Source: Escherichia coli
Lineage (GTDB): Bacteria; Pseudomonadota; Gammaproteobacteria; Enterobacterales; Enterobacteriaceae
DNA length: 64,000 bases
Assembly: GCF_003334385.1 (NCBI RefSeq)
Contig: NZ_QOWN01000002.1
Strand: one strand, 5' to 3'
How positions within the stretch are numbered: position 1 is the stretch's first letter; each line of letters starts with the position of its first letter. The position numbers and the translations under genes were made by a program. Below, piece by piece: positions 24,158 through 30,137 of the stretch. Below the pieces are notes generated by a model. It had not been told where the DNA came from and ran no database searches. It saw only the letters and a program-made list of their open reading frames with translations.

Positions 24158-24931
24158 ATGTCAGTACCTCTCATTCTGACCATACTGGCGGGGGCAGCCA
24201 CGTTTATTGGCGCGTTTCTCGGCGTTCTCGGGCAAAAACCCTCGAACCGCTTACTGGCGTTTTCGCTAGGTTTTGCGGCGGGGATCATGTTGCTCATCTC
24301 ATTAATGGAAATGCTTCCTGCCGCACTAGCAGCTGAAGGAATGTCGCCTGTGTTGGGTTATGGAATGTTTATCTTCGGTCTGCTTGGCTATTTTGGCCTG
24401 GACCGCATGTTGCCACATGCTCATCCGCAGGATTTAATGCAAAAATCGGTGCAGCCGTTGCCAAAATCGATCAAGCGCACAGCCATTCTGCTCACTCTCG
24501 GCATCAGTCTGCATAACTTCCCGGAAGGGATTGCCACCTTTGTCACGGCGAGCAGCAACCTGGAGCTGGGATTTGGCATCGCACTGGCCGTCGCGTTGCA
24601 CAATATCCCTGAAGGTCTGGCAGTGGCAGGCCCGGTTTATGCGGCAACGGGGTCTAAACGCACCGCGATTCTGTGGGCGGGAATTTCTGGACTAGCAGAA
24701 ATTCTTGGTGGTGTGCTGGCGTGGTTAATCCTCGGTAGCATGATTTCCCCGGTGGTCATGGCGGCAATCATGGCGGCGGTTGCAGGAATTATGGTGGCGC
24801 TCTCGGTTGATGAATTAATGCCGCTCGCCAAAGAGATTGACCCTAATAATAACCCCAGCTATGGCGTACTATGTGGAATGTCAGTGATGGGATTCAGTTT
24901 AGTGCTGCTACAAACGGCGGGAATTGGTTAA
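24158..24931 (+). CDS. zupT: Zinc transporter ZupT (ZIP family); start trimmed to [10 protein letters not shown]
   Basis: ORF track frame (track start is TTG); ATG at 24158; 257 aa. Confidence 0.93.
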
Positions 24932-24940
24932 AAACAACAT

Positions 24941-24971
24941 CAGAAGTTGTCCAGCGCATGGACAACTTCTG
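24941..24971 (-). terminator. Hairpin CAGAAGTTGTCC...GGACAACTTCTG; U-run follows on minus strand (terminator of the small ORF)
   Basis: 12-bp perfect inverted repeat; plus-strand aaaacaacat upstream gives a U-rich tail in the minus transcript. Confidence 0.5.
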
Positions 24972-24988
24972 CCAGCTTCACGAAAGCC

Positions 24989-25159
24989 TTATTCTACCTT
25001 TTCGGCTGTCTCTTCTCTCGTACTGTTTAAGTATTTGTTCCGCGCTTCAAGCAGTGCGTCTCTGTCCTGGCGAAACGCCCGACAATAACGTTTCAAATGC
25101 AGGAAATAACCCACCACAACCAGAGCAATCAATACAATCCAGTACCAGGCGATAAACAT
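24989..25159 (-). CDS. Small single-pass membrane protein, 56 aa (MFIAWYWIVLIALVVVGYFLHLKRY...)
   Basis: ATG at 25157-25159 preceded by AAGGG Shine-Dalgarno; N-terminal TM helix followed by basic residues; own terminator hairpin; not part of any listed longer gene. Confidence 0.55.
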   Translation of the reverse strand: MFIAWYWIVLIALVVVGYFLHLKRYCRAFRQDRDALLEARNKYLNSTREETAEKVE

Positions 25160-25357
25160 CCTTTTACCCTTAATATTTAACAATACTAAACATTTAGCGT
25201 ATAAATTTCACATATCCTTTTTCGGATATATTCATATGGTCGCATAATAACGGAACAATTATATGATTTTGATCATAATGAAAAAGAATGCCTGATATTA
25301 ATGAAATTTTCTCATAGAAAGAGAAGCGGAATTAACATCTTGCATAGCAGGGAAAAA

Positions 25358-25390
25358 TAAAAACCGAAGCCTGCTACAACTTCGGTTTCT
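25358..25390 (-). terminator. Rho-independent terminator downstream of ribB
   Basis: Hairpin AAACCGAAG...CTTCGGTTT with U-run in minus transcript. Confidence 0.55.
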
Positions 25391-25420
25391 TGATTAAGGC
25401 AGTAAATTAAGCAGCGGTTT

Positions 25421-26074
25421 TCAGCTGGCTTTACGCTCATGTGCCTGACGGTATGCCACCAGGTCTTCAATAGTCACGAGCGCCATATTGTGTTTATTGG
25501 CAAACTCAATACACTCTGGTGCACGCGCCATCGTGCCATCGTCATTAGTCAGCTCACACAGTACACCAGCCGGTTTAAAGCCTGCCAGCGTCATCAGATC
25601 AATAGTTGCTTCAGTATGACCGCCACGCGTCAGTACACCACCTGCCTGAGCGCGAAGTGGGAAAACGTGGCCAGGACGATTCAGATCTGACGGTTTTGCG
25701 CCATCGGCAATCGCTGCGCGAACGGTCGTAATACGGTCAGCGGCAGAAACACCGGTAGTCACACCTTCAGCTGCTTCAATGGTCACGGTAAAACCGGTGC
25801 CATAGGCGCTGGTGTTATTTTCTACCATCATTGGCAGATCGAGTTGTTTACGGCGATCTTCAGTAATGCACAGGCAAACAATACCGCTACCGTGGCGAAT
25901 GGTCAGCGCCATCTGCTCAACAGTCATGGTTTCTGCCGGGAAGATCATATCACCTTCGTTTTCACGGTCTTCATCATCAAGCACCATTACACCGCGTCCT
26001 TCACGCAGCGCAGCCAGTGCATTTTCAACACGTTCGAAAGGCGTACCAAAAGAGGAAAGTAGCGTCTGATTCAT
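25421..26074 (-). CDS. ribB: 3,4-dihydroxy-2-butanone 4-phosphate synthase
   Basis: ORF track; 217 aa. Confidence 0.96.
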
Positions 26075-26159: not shown

Positions 26160-26325
26160 GTCCATGCCCGACAGAATCGTTACTCTCTCCCATCCGGACT
26201 CTAACCGTCGGCCCCGGAATTACACCGGATCTGCTGTCCTTTGAGTTCGCACCCAAAGCGCTCGCGGGCTTTCAACTGAGTTGATTTACCGCCGGTGGGG
26301 AATTTCGCCCCGCCCTGAGAATAAG
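26160..26325 (-). promoter_or_regulatory. sroG: FMN riboswitch (RFN element) in ribB 5' leader
   Basis: Minus-strand sequence contains conserved RFN motifs (…GGGGCGAAATTCCCCACCGGCGGTAAA…GGATGGGAGAGAGTAACG…) in the ~250 nt leader upstream of ribB. Confidence 0.8.
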
Positions 26326-26447
26326 CGGATTCACTATAACGCTAATGATTAGCGGCAGCAACGCATAGCTTCACATAATTCTGGTTTATGACTTACCCTT
26401 ATCGCACTACAATGGCACTCAACACCTATCAGTACAGGGAAACTACA

Positions 26448-27623: not shown

Positions 27624-30137
27624 GTGGATCAGATGTATAAAAAATTAAAATTAACCACAATAAGCGAATTGATTAAAAATATTTATTGTTCATTATCCGT
27701 TATCATCATTGGTTGTGCGTCAGCTTATGCCGTTGAATTCAACAAAGATTTAATCGAAGCCGAAGATCGTGAAAACGTTAACCTTTCCCAATTTGAAACT
27801 GATGGCCAATTACCCGTCGGCAAATATTCACTAAGCACTCTGATTAATAATAAGAGGACGCCAATCCACCTTGACCTCCAATGGGTATTAATTGATAACC
27901 AAACTGCAGTTTGCGTGACACCAGAGCAATTAACATTATTAGGATTTACTGATGAATTTATTGAAAAAACTCAGCAAAACCTGATCGATGGTTGTTACCC
28001 TATCGAAAAAGAAAAACAAATTACAACTTATCTCGATAAAGGGAAAATGCAATTATCCATATCTGCACCTCAGGCATGGTTAAAATACAAAGATGCAAAC
28101 TGGACGCCTCCTGAACTTTGGAATCATGGTATTGCTGGGGCATTTCTTGACTACAATTTATATGCCTCTCATTATGCACCACATCAGGGCGATAATTCGC
28201 AAAATATAAGTTCCTATGGGCAGGCTGGGGTTAATCTTGGGGCCTGGCGCCTGCGTACTGATTACCAGTACGATCAGTCATTTAACAATGGCAAAAGCCA
28301 GGCGACCAACCTGGATTTTCCGCGTATTTATTTGTTTCGCCCAATCCCAGCAATGAATGCAAAACTAACTATAGGTCAATACGATACTGAATCCTCTATT
28401 TTCGACTCTTTCCATTTTTCTGGCATTTCGTTGAAAAGCGATGAGAATATGTTACCGCCAGACCTACGTGGTTACGCACCGCAAATCACGGGTGTCGCAC
28501 AAACGAATGCAAAGGTCACTGTCTCACAGAACAACCGTATTATTTATCAAGAAAATGTTCCTCCAGGCCCATTTGCTATTACCAATTTATTCAATACATT
28601 ACAGGGGCAACTTGACGTCAAGGTTGAAGAAGAGGACGGACGCGTTACGCAATGGCAAGTTGCATCTAATAGTATTCCTTATCTGACGCGTAAAGGGCAG
28701 ATTCGCTACACCACTGCTATGGGTAAACCGACCAGCGTTGGTGGTGATTCCTTACAACAACCCTTCTTCTGGACTGGTGAATTCTCATGGGGTTGGCTGA
28801 ACAATGTATCCCTGTATGGTGGTTCAGTTTTAACAAACCGTGATTATCAATCTCTGGCTGCCGGCGTTGGTTTTAACCTTAACTCATTAGGTTCATTATC
28901 TTTTGATGTCACACGATCTGATGCTCAGTTGCATAATCAGGATAAAGAAACGGGTTATAGCTACCGCGCTAACTATTCAAAACGTTTTGAATCTACCGGT
29001 AGCCAACTCACTTTCGCTGGTTACCGTTTCTCTGATAAAAACTTTGTGACAATGAATGAATATATCAATGACACTAACCATTACACGAATTATCAGAATG
29101 AAAAAGAGAGTTATATTGTCACGTTTAACCAGTATCTTGAATCATTAAGGTTAAATACATACGTAAGTTTGGCTCGTAATACTTACTGGGACGCCAGCAG
29201 TAATGTGAATTATTCATTATCACTTAGCCGCGATTTTGATATCGGGCCATTAAAAAACGTCTCCACTTCTCTAACATTTAGCCGAATAAACTGGGAAGAA
29301 GACAACCAGGATCAACTGTACCTAAATATTTCGATTCCCTGGGGAACTAGTAGAACATTGAGCTATGGTATGCAACGAAATCAGGATAATGAGATTTCGC
29401 ATACTGCTTCGTGGTATGACTCTTCCGATCGAAATAATTCCTGGAGCGTTTCTGCTTCAGGCGACAATGATGAATTCAAAGATATGAAAGCGTCACTACG
29501 CGCCAGTTATCAGCATAATACCGAGAACGGTCGACTCTACCTCTCCGGTACATCACAGCGAGACAGTTATTATTCTCTGAATGCCAGTTGGAATGGTTCA
29601 TTCACTGCGACTCGCCACGGTGCCGCTTTCCACGACTATAGCGGTAGTGCTGACTCGCGTTTTATGATCGACGCAGACGGCACTGAAGATATTCCGTTGA
29701 ACAATAAACGCGCGGTAACTAATCGGTATGGCATCGGAGTTATTCCATCAGTCAGCAGTTACATAACAACATCATTAAGTGTTGATACCCGAAATCTGCC
29801 AGAAAATGTGGATATCGAAAACTCGGTTATCACCACCACCTTAACCGAGGGTGCTATTGGCTACGCCAAACTTGATACCCGCAAGGGCTACCAAATCATA
29901 GGGGTTATTCGCCTGGCAGATGGTAGTCATCCACCACTGGGGATTAGCGTAAAAGATGAAACCAGCCACAAAGAATTAGGACTGGTTGCTGATGGCGGCT
30001 TTGTATACCTCAACGGCATTCAGGATGATAACAAACTTGCTTTACGCTGGGGTGACAAATCTTGTTTTATTCAACCACCCAATAGCAGCAACTTAACCAC
30101 CGGAACGGCTATTTTACCGTGTATTAGCCAAAATTAA
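27624..30137 (+). CDS. yqiG: Fimbrial outer membrane usher, apparently intact (837 aa)
   Basis: ORF track; single uninterrupted ORF of usher size; no insertion sequence between ygiL and yqiG. Confidence 0.85.
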   Translation: MDQMYKKLKLTTISELIKNIYCSLSVIIIGCASAYAVEFNKDLIEAEDRENVNLSQFETDGQLPVGKYSLSTLINNKRTPIHLDLQWVLIDNQTAVCVTPEQLTLLGFTDEFIEKTQQNLIDGCYPIEKEKQITTYLDKGKMQLSISAPQAWLKYKDANWTPPELWNHGIAGAFLDYNLYASHYAPHQGDNSQNISSYGQAGVNLGAWRLRTDYQYDQSFNNGKSQATNLDFPRIYLFRPIPAMNAKLTIGQYDTESSIFDSFHFSGISLKSDENMLPPDLRGYAPQITGVAQTNAKVTVSQNNRIIYQENVPPGPFAITNLFNTLQGQLDVKVEEEDGRVTQWQVASNSIPYLTRKGQIRYTTAMGKPTSVGGDSLQQPFFWTGEFSWGWLNNVSLYGGSVLTNRDYQSLAAGVGFNLNSLGSLSFDVTRSDAQLHNQDKETGYSYRANYSKRFESTGSQLTFAGYRFSDKNFVTMNEYINDTNHYTNYQNEKESYIVTFNQYLESLRLNTYVSLARNTYWDASSNVNYSLSLSRDFDIGPLKNVSTSLTFSRINWEEDNQDQLYLNISIPWGTSRTLSYGMQRNQDNEISHTASWYDSSDRNNSWSVSASGDNDEFKDMKASLRASYQHNTENGRLYLSGTSQRDSYYSLNASWNGSFTATRHGAAFHDYSGSADSRFMIDADGTEDIPLNNKRAVTNRYGIGVIPSVSSYITTSLSVDTRNLPENVDIENSVITTTLTEGAIGYAKLDTRKGYQIIGVIRLADGSHPPLGISVKDETSHKELGLVADGGFVYLNGIQDDNKLALRWGDKSCFIQPPNSSNLTTGTAILPCISQN

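What the first reader, a model, noticed from the sequence alone, without database searches (positions are those of the whole stretch)
24989..25159. Unlisted 56-aa single-pass membrane protein gene between zupT and ribB
On the minus strand an ATG at 25159 is preceded by UAAGGGUAAAAGG and opens a 56-codon ORF: an N-terminal hydrophobic helix (FIAWYWIVLIALVVVGYFL), then a basic cluster (HLKRYCRAFRQDRD) and an acidic tail. A 12-bp perfect hairpin with U-tail (24941-24971) follows the stop. This looks like an independent small-protein gene rather than noise. It may correspond to a catalogued E. coli small protein, but I cannot confirm a name from memory.
Basis: seen in the sequence. Interest (0 to 1): 0.45.

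Follow-up and report, generated by a model that had tools for sequence, protein, structure and literature searches.

The report
Known small membrane protein gene yqiD
The 56-codon reading frame between zupT and ribB is real, but it is the already catalogued and experimentally detected E. coli small membrane protein gene yqiD, whose function is still unknown.

Summary
Window 24989-25159 (-) is an ATG-started 56-codon ORF with a Shine-Dalgarno sequence, an N-terminal transmembrane helix, a basic juxtamembrane cluster and a hairpin terminator.

It is not new. RefSeq annotates it as yqiD ("protein YqiD", WP_000469266.1), UniProt holds YQID_ECOLI, and EcoCyc lists b4756. VanOrsdel et al. 2018 list this exact sequence at this locus among the small proteins they detected by chromosomal SPA tagging, and say it also scored in tetracycline ribosome profiling.

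- The frame is intact in 30 of 30 species-level genomes (Escherichia, Citrobacter, Salmonella, Intestinirhabdus, Enterobacter sp., Phytobacter, Kosakonia).
- dN/dS over codons 1-43 is about 0.03-0.17, with synonymous sites near saturation.
- No other frame is conserved.

The gene has its own conserved promoter region. An RpoS-holoenzyme SELEX peak maps onto it.

The most likely role is a single-pass (N-out, C-in) inner-membrane protein that binds and modulates a larger membrane protein. The partner is unknown, and ZupT is only a weak candidate.

By-products: two deeply diverged yqiD haplotypes in E. coli, and an invariant upstream palindrome. Verdict: already known, low interest.

The parts
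24989..25159 (-). yqiD coding sequence (56 codons plus stop)
   Evidence: ORF and translation. RefSeq CDS 'yqiD: protein YqiD' WP_000469266.1 at the same place. Identical to the YqiD row in Table 1 of PMC6001520. Purifying selection.
25167..25171 (-). Shine-Dalgarno core AAGGG, 7 nt upstream of the ATG
   Evidence: Sequence. An AAGGG or GAGGAAGG purine run is kept upstream of the ATG in all 30 species.
25100..25156 (-). Codons 2-20, the N-terminal transmembrane helix FIAWYWIVLIALVVVGYFL
   Evidence: Hydropathy 2.33 over residues 1-19. Helical in the AF2 model, with block pLDDT 83-86. I3 and W5 are invariant, and Y6, W7, Y18 nearly so.
25046..25099 (-). Codons 21-38, the conserved juxtamembrane segment HLKRYCRAFRQDRDALLE, predicted to be cytoplasmic
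   Evidence: R24, C26, A28, R30, D32, R33, D34, A35 are invariant in 20 diverse sequences. The core RAFRQDRDA is kept down to about 37% overall identity. Net charge +3, so positive-inside.
24992..25030 (-). Codons 44-56, a charged C-terminal tail that varies between species
   Evidence: Tail sequence and length vary; whole proteins range from 53 to 74 aa.
24931..24971 (-). Intrinsic terminator of yqiD: 13-bp stem with 5-nt loop (24941-24971) plus an interrupted U-tract, in the 57-nt gap between the convergent yqiD and zupT stop codons
   Evidence: Kept in Escherichia with one compensatory pair (GAAGTT/AACTTC changed to GATGTT/AACATC). Replaced by other hairpins in most Citrobacter and Salmonella, and absent where the gap to zupT is only 10-23 nt.
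25236..25244 (-). Predicted extended -10 element TG-C-GACCAT (hexamer 25241-25236), giving a predicted TSS near 25229. This is inferred, not measured.
   Evidence: TG-n-nAnnAT lies exactly 18 nt after the palindrome in 33 of the 35 loci that have the palindrome, despite leader-length differences of more than 40 nt. An RpoS-holoenzyme SELEX peak maps to about window 25227.
25263..25276 (-). Invariant inverted repeat ATGATCAAAATCAT, a candidate regulator-binding site. It marks the start of the cross-genus conserved upstream block.
   Evidence: Single match in the 64-kb window, with 0.11 expected. Present in 35 of 42 loci against about 1% chance per upstream region. Half-sites are kept while the spacer changes in Enterobacter kpr-6 and L008.
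25359..25390 (-). ribB terminator. It is not part of yqiD; it marks the boundary that separates yqiD from the ribB transcription unit.
   Evidence: Terminator scan. It lies just downstream of the ribB stop codon at 25421.

Best explanation
This is yqiD (b4756), a known, independently transcribed gene for a 56-residue protein.

Shown or published:
- The frame is translated in E. coli.
- It is conserved as a protein across part of the Enterobacteriaceae.
- It is a single-copy gene present in nearly all complete E. coli genomes.

Inferred from sequence:
- The protein is a single-pass inner-membrane protein. Its N-terminus lies at the periplasmic face (only one or two residues precede the helix). 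Its C-terminal 35 or so residues lie in the cytoplasm, following the positive-inside rule.
- The nearly invariant stretch KRYCRAFRQDRDALLEAR continues the membrane helix along or just below the inner leaflet. The tail beyond it is free to vary.

Inferred mechanism (weakest step):
- Like other E. coli single-pass small proteins (AcrZ, MgtS, KdpF, CydX, MgrB), YqiD most likely works by binding a larger membrane protein and tuning its activity or stability, with the conserved juxtamembrane helix as the contact surface. The partner is unknown.

Expression:
- Transcription comes from the gene's own promoter, which sigma-S holoenzyme binds in vitro.
- That promoter carries an invariant palindrome placed where a class II dimeric activator would sit.
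For: Identity:
- RefSeq CDS yqiD at the same coordinates.
- Identical sequence and flanking genes in Table 1 of VanOrsdel 2018, which lists proteins detected by chromosomal SPA-tag immunoblot. The paper names YqiD among those positive in tetracycline ribosome profiling.
- UniProt name YQID_ECOLI and b4756.

Protein-level selection:
- 30 of 30 species genomes keep an intact ATG ORF of 56-70 aa.
- Only this frame is open in all 31 genomes.
- Over codons 1-43, pS is about 0.7 against pN about 0.1, and dN/dS is 0.03-0.17. Differences concentrate at third codon positions, for example 7/5/19 against Salmonella.

Near-universal gene:
- 4,424 plus 991 of 5,426 complete E. coli genomes carry one of the two allele types, with a median of one copy per genome.

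Membrane topology:
- Hydropathy 2.33 for residues 1-19, then 5 K/R within residues 21-35.
- The AF2 model is one continuous helix, residues 2-55, mean pLDDT 72.

Own transcription unit:
- ribB terminator upstream and yqiD terminator downstream.
- A conserved 120-nt upstream block that does not depend on the upstream neighbour.
- An RpoS-holoenzyme SELEX peak in this 'type C' spacer that maps to about 25227.
- Natural upstream variants change reporter output.
Against: - No experiment on localisation, partner or phenotype was found in the searchable literature. The mechanism is by analogy only.
- No significant match to any characterised small-protein family or solved structure.
- Nearly every residue of positions 21-38 is conserved, not just one helical face. 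That fits a buried or multi-contact segment, but it could also mean homo-oligomerisation or lipid/headgroup contact rather than a hetero-partner.
- The AF2 confidence is modest, and a single helix is the default output for such peptides.
- The TSS, the sigma-S dependence in vivo and the role of the palindrome are unverified.
Confidence: 0.9

Rival explanations
1. YqiD is specifically an accessory or regulatory subunit of the neighbouring ZIP-family metal importer ZupT, modulating zinc or divalent-metal uptake. This would parallel MntS with MntP, or MgtS with MgtA. It is a sub-case of the best explanation that names the partner.
For: - yqiD is convergent with zupT, 10-75 nt away or overlapping, in all 30 species genomes and in nine other loci examined, while the upstream neighbour changes between ribB, a fimbrial operon and an assT-dsbL-dsbI island.
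- Within E. coli the haplotype break falls exactly at the zupT stop codon, so yqiD always remains next to zupT.
Against: - Convergent genes are not co-transcribed.
- Adjacency among close relatives is expected from vertical descent alone.
- The two most divergent family members examined in context (L048, L050) have ygiC, not zupT, as the convergent neighbour.
- The word-based search, the pattern-based genome scan and the exhaustive profile search returned no relative labelled Klebsiella, and only one labelled Enterobacter.
- No co-folding or interaction test could be run.
Confidence: 0.12
2. The transcript, not the protein, is the main functional product. Convergent transcription from the yqiD promoter would interfere with, or pair with, the 3' end of the zupT mRNA, and the ORF would be secondary.
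For: - In several lineages there is no terminator hairpin and the two stop codons are 10-23 nt apart or overlap: 4 nt in L008 and 18 nt in L047. There, yqiD transcription must run antisense into zupT.
- The K-12 hairpin has a U-tract only on the yqiD strand.
Against: - Strong protein-level purifying selection with near-saturated synonymous sites cannot be explained by an RNA role.
- The protein is detected.
- The leader has no conserved RNA fold: consensus energy -1.1 kcal/mol with essentially no covariation.
- An additional RNA-level effect is not excluded.
Confidence: 0.05
3. YqiD is a type I toxin-like small hydrophobic peptide that damages the membrane when expressed and is normally held in check by an antisense RNA.
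For: - It has the size and hydrophobic N-terminus typical of such peptides.
- It sits at the edge of a variable, island-prone region.
- Ibs-family toxins occur about 10 kb away in strain 042.
Against: - It is single-copy and present in nearly all complete E. coli genomes.
- It is detected from its native locus in ordinary LB cultures, according to the paper.
- It has a highly conserved, charged cytoplasmic segment, unlike type I toxins.
- No antisense-strand ORF or conserved RNA structure was detected, and Rfam finds no antitoxin sRNA here.
- No PADLOC hit.
Confidence: 0.03
4. The ORF is a chance open frame in an AT-rich spacer and is not a gene.
For: An ATG-ORF of at least 56 codons arises in 16% of shuffles of the spacer. 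A 94-aa shadow ORF lies on the opposite strand.
Against: Published protein detection, an intact frame in 30 of 30 species, dN/dS well below 1, and stops in all other frames across species.
Confidence: 0.01

Closest known systems
YqiD of E. coli K-12 (b4756; UniProt YQID_ECOLI; RefSeq WP_000469266.1; VanOrsdel et al. 2018)
   Same: Identical 56-aa sequence, same strand and same flanking genes (zupT and ribB). This is the same gene.
   Different: Nothing differs. The published record gives no function, localisation or regulation.
'DUF4051 domain-containing protein', the label some NCBI and UniProt entries give to Salmonella, Citrobacter, Shigella and E. coli homologues
   Same: The homologues so labelled are 63-80% identical orthologues at the same locus. 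The label is only a placeholder for this same small family.
   Different: The current Pfam-A library available here returns no DUF4051 hit for any of 19 members. The label could not be reproduced and adds no functional information.
Small single-pass inner-membrane regulators of E. coli: AcrZ (AcrB), MgtS (MgtA/PitA), KdpF (KdpABC), CydX (CydAB), MgrB (PhoQ). This comparison rests on established knowledge.
   Same: Size class, one transmembrane helix, a short soluble segment, and a stand-alone gene with its own promoter. AcrZ in particular has an N-terminal TM helix followed by a cytoplasmic C-terminal segment, like the topology predicted here.
   Different: No sequence relationship: none of these families appears in the Pfam or NCBIfam scans. 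No partner is known for YqiD. The resemblance concerns how it may work, not family membership.
Type I toxins (Ibs, Ldr, Hok, TisB)
   Same: Small hydrophobic membrane peptides encoded in intergenic regions.
   Different: YqiD is single-copy, present in nearly all E. coli genomes, expressed in normal growth, has a conserved charged cytoplasmic domain and has no detectable antisense partner.
C-tail-anchored ribosome-associated proteins ElaB, YqjD and YgaM. The name YqjD is easily confused with YqiD.
   Same: Small inner-membrane proteins of E. coli, reported as sigma-S dependent (own knowledge).
   Different: Those proteins are about 100 aa with a C-terminal anchor. YqiD is 56 aa with an N-terminal anchor, and no similarity was found in any scan.

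Membership tests
YqiD (E. coli b4756) | Amino-acid sequence identical to the catalogued protein | tested here: met
   56 of 56 residues identical to Table 1 of PMC6001520. RefSeq names the CDS under a 100%-identical DNA match yqiD, WP_000469266.1. An exact-sequence look-up returns 'Protein YqiD ... YQID_ECOLI'.
YqiD (E. coli b4756) | Genomic position: between zupT and ribB, convergent with zupT | tested here: met
   Window order is zupT (24158-24931 +), yqiD (24989-25159 -), ribB (25421-26074 -). The paper gives 'zupT / rib, > < <'.
YqiD (E. coli b4756) | The protein is actually synthesised | not testable with these tools
   Literature only. YqiD is listed among proteins detected by chromosomal SPA-tag immunoblot, and the paper names it as positive in tetracycline ribosome profiling.
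Pfam DUF4051 | Significant match to the family's profile HMM | tested here: inconclusive
   No DUF4051 hit at E <= 10 for the query or for any of 19 homologues in the Pfam-A library provided. Several NCBI and UniProt records of orthologues nevertheless carry that label. The family may be absent from the current release.
   30 of 30 frames intact. dN/dS 0.03-0.17 over codons 1-43. All other frames are interrupted across species.
Single-pass (bitopic) membrane protein, N-out/C-in | One hydrophobic helix of about 19 or more residues, with the positive-charge bias on the cytoplasmic side | tested here: met
   Residues 1-19 have hydropathy 2.33. There are no charged residues before the helix and 5 K/R within the 15 residues after it. 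The model is helical. Experimental localisation was not available.
Characterised small membrane regulators (AcrZ, MgrB, KdpF, CydX families) | Match to the family profile | tested here: not met
   The Pfam-A and NCBIfam scans list only sub-threshold DUF2621, DUF6526, DUF4381 and NF038143 hits (18 bits against a cut-off of 50). The PDB profile search returned 0 hits.
Type I toxin-antitoxin | Multi-copy or patchy distribution, plus an overlapping antisense sRNA | tested here: not met
   Median one copy per genome, present in 5,415 of 5,426 genomes. No Rfam sRNA at the locus. No conserved RNA structure in the leader. Toxicity itself is not testable here.
Rho-independent terminator | G+C-containing stem-loop followed by a U-tract just after the stop codon | tested here: met
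   13-bp stem with 6 G-C pairs, then AUGUUGUUUUU. z = -3.9. One compensatory pair within Escherichia.
Class II CRP/FNR-type activated promoter | TGA-N6-TCA palindrome centred near -41.5 relative to the TSS, with a weak or absent -35 | tested here: inconclusive
   The palindrome ATGAT-N4-ATCAT lies at a fixed 18-nt distance from a conserved TG-n-nAnnAT in 33 of 35 loci. This places its centre at about -41 if that hexamer is the -10. The TSS is not measured. The site matches the FNR and CRP cores at 8 of 10 positions, but the discriminating base is A/T in every species. No binding data were found.
Sigma-S-recognised promoter | Binding by RpoS holoenzyme | not testable with these tools
   Literature: RpoS genomic SELEX peak no. 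153, 'zupT > < ribB', intensity 10.0. My coordinate conversion puts it at about window 25227, 68 nt upstream of the ATG. The conversion is cross-checked by the neighbouring peak, which falls in the ubiK-ygiL spacer. The conserved C just upstream of the hexamer would fit a sigma-S preference (own knowledge).

The most novel reading that the evidence does not exclude
YqiD is a stationary-phase (sigma-S) and CRP/FNR-family-controlled membrane modulator of a specific transporter, with ZupT the most obvious candidate. This would link growth-phase or redox signals to divalent-metal uptake. E. coli would then maintain two ancient haplotypes of this modulator, which differ mainly in the cytoplasmic tail and the promoter.
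Probability: 0.08. Interest if true: 0.4.

Novelty: already known. Interest (0 to 1): 0.1.

Why it matters
For the scan, the answer is that this finding is a rediscovery. The gene is annotated, named and experimentally supported, so it should not be carried forward as a new gene.

It still shows that sequence-only reading can recover genuine small-protein genes. The SD, transmembrane helix, basic cluster and terminator were all read correctly.

What remains open is biology rather than annotation, because YqiD has no known function.
- the family boundaries (part of the Enterobacteriaceae);
- the invariant RAFRQDRDA core;
- a conserved promoter with a palindrome at an activator-like position;
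- a plausible explanation for a previously unexplained RpoS-holoenzyme SELEX peak in a spacer between convergent genes;
- two deep haplotypes in E. coli.

Tried and rejected
- Family scans. Pfam-A, NCBIfam, PADLOC, PHROGs and a PDB sequence-profile search gave nothing above threshold. The weak hits (DUF2621 at E 8e-4, NF038143 at 18 bits against a cut-off of 50, an Rz-like spanin at E 0.025, DndG at E 0.03) all cover the TM-plus-charged-helix stretch, and I treat them as compositional.
- Structure. AF2 gives a single helix at pLDDT 72. I ran no fold search because a lone helix would give meaningless matches. I considered a linker-fused YqiD-ZupT prediction and rejected it. The tool returns no interface metrics, and fused TM helices tend to pack regardless.
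- RNA element in the leader. The Rfam 'evalue' scan found only noise at 25162-25204. RNAalifold on 19 leaders gave -1.1 kcal/mol with no covariation, so this idea is rejected.
- Alternative start. The TTG at 25183 (64 aa) is rejected because of frame-shifting indels between species.
- Opposite-strand 94-aa ORF (24871-25155 +). Rejected because it carries stops in nearly all orthologues.
- ZupT linkage as proof of function. This is weakened by two divergent contexts that lack zupT.
- ZupT::YqiD 'fusion' protein P0146. It traces to a single 2-kb Logan contig with an 8-nt microhomology junction. I treat it as an inversion or assembly artefact, not as Rosetta-stone evidence.
- Literature. Most 'yqiD' hits refer to the unrelated B. 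subtilis yqiD (an ispA homologue). No supplementary tables were available for the ribosome-profiling, Mg-starvation, NAD-cap or VanOrsdel papers. The 'Cryptic Bacterial Microproteome' supplements had no hit. The Thomason TSS paper is not held.
- Failed or repeated jobs. 

Full report
**1. What is in the sequence**

On the minus strand an ATG at 25159 opens a 56-codon frame that ends with a stop at 24989-24991. It encodes MFIAWYWIVLIALVVVGYFLHLKRYCRAFRQDRDALLEARNKYLNSTREETAEKVE.

- The ATG is preceded by TAAGGGTAAAAGG. The AAGGG core is at 25167-25171, 7 nt from the start.
- Residues 1-19 have a mean Kyte-Doolittle hydropathy of 2.33. The next 15 residues carry five K/R.
- Between the yqiD stop and the convergent zupT stop (24931) lies a 13-bp stem with a 5-nt loop (24941-24971), followed by AUGUUGUUUUU. 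The 61-nt fold has dG -24.6 kcal/mol and z -3.9.

ORF length by itself is weak evidence. 16% of shuffles of the 489-nt spacer contain an ATG-ORF at least this long.

**2. It is a known gene**

- A megablast of 24900-25420 against 5,426 complete E. coli genomes shows the stretch annotated as 'yqiD: protein YqiD'. In one record the CDS coordinates coincide exactly with the ORF (WP_000469266.1).
- Table 1 of VanOrsdel et al. 2018 (Proteomics; PMC6001520), headed 'SPs detected in this study', lists yqiD with flanking genes zupT/rib, NC_000913.3 coordinates 3183381-3183551, 56 aa and this exact sequence.
- In that study, 3' SPA tags were inserted at the chromosomal loci and proteins were detected by immunoblot in LB cultures. 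[quoted passage not shown]
- The exact sequence is held in UniProt as YQID_ECOLI, and a 2026 paper cites it as b4756.

**3.

Three searches were run: a word-based protein search, a pattern-based scan of one genome per species and an exhaustive profile search of 1.84 billion representatives.

- Relatives were found only in part of the Enterobacteriaceae: Escherichia (coli, albertii, whittamii), about 20 Citrobacter species, Salmonella enterica subspecies, Intestinirhabdus, one Enterobacter sp., and Phytobacter and Kosakonia at 37-39% identity. A few more divergent unnamed members also appeared.
- All 30 species-level loci have an intact ATG-started frame of 56-70 aa behind a purine-rich SD.
- Across 31 genomes only this frame is open in all of them. 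The opposite-strand 94-aa shadow ORF (24871-25155 +) is broken nearly everywhere.
- Nei-Gojobori counts over the indel-free first 43 codons give pS about 0.7 and pN about 0.1 against Salmonella and Citrobacter, with dN/dS 0.03-0.17. Differences concentrate at third positions, for example 7/5/19.
- Invariant residues in 20 diverse sequences are M1, I3, W5, R24, C26, A28, R30, D32, R33, D34 and A35.
- The core R-A-F/Y-R-Q-D/E-R-D/E-A persists in the most distant members, although the cysteine does not.
- The tail after residue 43 varies in sequence and length.

This is a protein under purifying selection, not a chance frame.

**4. An independent transcription unit**

- ribB ends at 25421 and has its own terminator at 25359-25390.
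- The gene upstream of yqiD differs between lineages. It is ribB in K-12-type E. coli, C. freundii and others. It is a fimbrial operon in the other E. coli haplotype and in E. albertii. It is an arylsulfotransferase-dsbA-dsbB island in Salmonella, C. rodentium and C. amalonaticus.
- About 120 nt upstream of the ATG nevertheless stays with yqiD.
- That block begins at an invariant inverted repeat, ATGATC(A/G)AAATCAT (window 25263-25276). It has a single match in the window against 0.11 expected.
- The repeat is present in 35 of 42 loci, against about 1% chance per upstream region. In 33 of those 35, a TG-n-nAnnAT element starts exactly 18 nt after it.
- This holds even in Enterobacter kpr-6 and contig L008, where the repeat's spacer has changed and the leader is more than 40 nt shorter.
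- If that hexamer (25241-25236) is the -10, the TSS is near 25229 and the repeat is centred at about -41. That is the geometry of a class II CRP/FNR-type activator site, and there is no conserved -35.
- The half-sites match the FNR (TTGAT-N4-ATCAA) and CRP (GTGAT-N4-ATCAC) cores at 8 of 10 positions, but the discriminating base is A/T in every species. The comparison with those consensus sequences comes from my own knowledge. The identity of the regulator is open, and nothing here was checked against TSS or ChIP data.
- The leader has no conserved RNA fold.

**5. Independent published hints about expression**

- Shimada et al. 2017 (PMC5493296) list an RpoS-holoenzyme genomic-SELEX peak (no. 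153, intensity 10.0) in the 'type C' spacer zupT > < ribB. That is a spacer class lying downstream of both flanking genes, for which they predicted no promoter.
  - Converting their coordinate with the 1,977-bp length difference between the two MG1655 genome versions (own knowledge) places the peak at about window 25227. That is 68 nt upstream of the yqiD ATG and next to the predicted -10.
  - The same conversion puts their neighbouring peak correctly in the ubiK-ygiL spacer.
  - The yqiD promoter is a plausible explanation for that orphan peak.
- A 2025 preprint reports that natural non-coding variants upstream of yqiD change expression consistently in GWAS, a promoter model and GFP reporter fusions.
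- In EAEC 042 a 'DUF4051 family' gene, Orf3334, was one of only 3 of 23 tested genes that went up in an aar mutant.
  - By position, this is probably the yqiD homologue WP_001296421.1 next to zupT.
  - I could not verify the accession link.

**6. What it most likely does**

Shown: the frame is translated (literature), selected as a protein, and present in nearly all complete E. coli genomes.

Inferred from sequence:
- It is a single-pass inner-membrane protein, N-out and C-in by the positive-inside rule.
- It is modelled as one continuous helix (AF2 pLDDT 72).
- Its conserved juxtamembrane segment (residues 21-38) sits at the cytoplasmic face.

By analogy with other E. coli small single-pass proteins (AcrZ, MgtS, KdpF, CydX, MgrB; established knowledge), the most likely mechanism is binding to, and modulation of, a larger membrane protein. 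I put that at roughly one in three. The rest is spread over self-association, lipid-interface roles and the rivals listed in the report.

ZupT is the obvious candidate because yqiD is convergent with it in 39 of the 41 loci I examined. Three points weaken that:
- convergent genes are not co-transcribed;
- adjacency among relatives is expected by descent;
- the two most divergent contexts have ygiC rather than zupT as the neighbour.

I give ZupT about 0.12.

A primarily RNA-level role and a type I toxin role are both unlikely.

**7. Comparison with known families**

Membership in 'YqiD' is met by identity and position. The 'DUF4051' label carried by orthologues in public records could not be reproduced with the Pfam-A library provided. 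No characterised small-protein family, defence family, phage family or solved structure matches.

**8. By-products**

- E. coli carries two deep yqiD haplotypes.
  - The K-12 type is in 4,424 genomes. A second type, about 76% identical in DNA, is in 991 genomes, including the type strain ATCC 11775 and EAEC 042.
  - Their synonymous divergence (pS 0.69) equals that between genera.
  - Identity jumps from 96-100% to about 55-85% exactly at the zupT stop codon.
  - RefSeq names only the first type yqiD; the second is 'hypothetical protein'.
- IS1 insertions truncate the gene in a few strains.

**9. Verdict**

Novelty: already known. Interest is low (0.1). The residual interest lies in the unknown function and the conserved promoter architecture.

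Noticed in passing
window 24932-25290; compare L002 1480-1860 and L045 5670-5840: E. coli has two deeply diverged yqiD haplotypes. The K-12 type is in 4,424 complete genomes. A type about 76% identical in DNA is in 991 genomes, including the type strain ATCC 11775 and EAEC 042. Synonymous divergence between them (pS 0.69) is as large as against Salmonella. The flanking zupT is 96-100% identical, and the break falls exactly at the zupT stop codon. RefSeq names only the first type yqiD; the second is 'hypothetical protein'.
   Followed up: partly
window 25263-25276 (-) and 25236-25244 (-): An invariant inverted repeat, ATGATC(A/G)AAATCAT, contains a Dam GATC site. It is followed at a fixed 18-nt distance by TG-n-nAnnAT in 33 of 35 loci across genera. 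This places the repeat at about -41 of a predicted extended -10 promoter, which is the geometry of a class II CRP/FNR-type site. The regulator is unknown and the TSS has not been measured.
   Followed up: partly
window about 25227 (converted from map position 3181642 in PMC5493296): An RpoS-holoenzyme genomic-SELEX peak was published in 2017 in the convergent 'type C' spacer zupT > < ribB, where no promoter was expected. It coincides with the predicted yqiD promoter and may be explained by it.
   Followed up: partly
upstream of yqiD: window 25391-25420; L002, L004, L010, L011, L012, L045: The segment just upstream of the yqiD promoter is a rearrangement hot spot. Depending on lineage, the neighbour is ribB, a four-gene fimbrial operon, or an arylsulfotransferase-dsbL-dsbI island. 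In EAEC 042 the fimbrial operon lies between yqiD and ribB, whereas in this window the fimbrial genes lie beyond ubiK.
   Followed up: partly
L003 2762-3619; L043 1493-2324: IS1 insertions truncate the 3' end of yqiD in at least two E. coli strains (DLI.6n and AHB18). The gene is therefore dispensable in those backgrounds.
   Followed up: no
L008 3198-3201; L047 3208-3225; L020, L028, L033, L035, L038-L042 downstream of yqiD: In several lineages there is no terminator hairpin between yqiD and zupT. The stop codons are only 10-23 nt apart, or the genes overlap by 4 or 18 nt, so the two transcripts must overlap at their 3' ends.
   Followed up: no
L048 1498-1722; L050 3001-3162: The most divergent YqiD-like proteins examined in context (P0147, P0144) are convergent with ygiC (glutathionylspermidine-synthase family) rather than with zupT. 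The zupT-ygiD pair is missing from between them in those genomes.
   Followed up: partly
L049 1499-1876: A 125-aa predicted protein joins ZupT residues 1-72 to YqiD-like residues 13 onwards, with an 8-nt microhomology (GATGTTCG) at the junction. The inverted zupT 3' end follows. It comes from a single 2-kb Logan contig, so it is either an inversion or an assembly artefact.
   Followed up: partly
NC_017626.1 3555669-3555839 (L045 5670-5840): In EAEC 042 a 'DUF4051 family' gene (Orf3334, CBG36162.1) was one of only 3 of 23 qRT-PCR-tested genes that were up-regulated in an aar (H-NS-modulating) mutant. By position it is probably the yqiD homologue, but the accession link was not verified.
   Followed up: partly
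window 25352-25422 (-): A sub-threshold but full-length Rfam match to the enterobacterial sRNA STnc240 (29.1 bits against a gathering score of 55, E 0.24) covers the ribB stop codon and its terminator. This may be a 3'-UTR-derived sRNA, or just terminator similarity.
   Followed up: no
window 26178-26326 (-): An FMN riboswitch (120.9 bits) lies in the ribB leader, as expected for this locus.
   Followed up: no
window 27624-30137 (+): The fimbrial usher-sized ORF after ygiL is open for 837 aa. From memory, yqiG is interrupted by an IS element in MG1655, so the window may come from another strain carrying the K-12-type yqiD allele. This was not checked.
   Followed up: no
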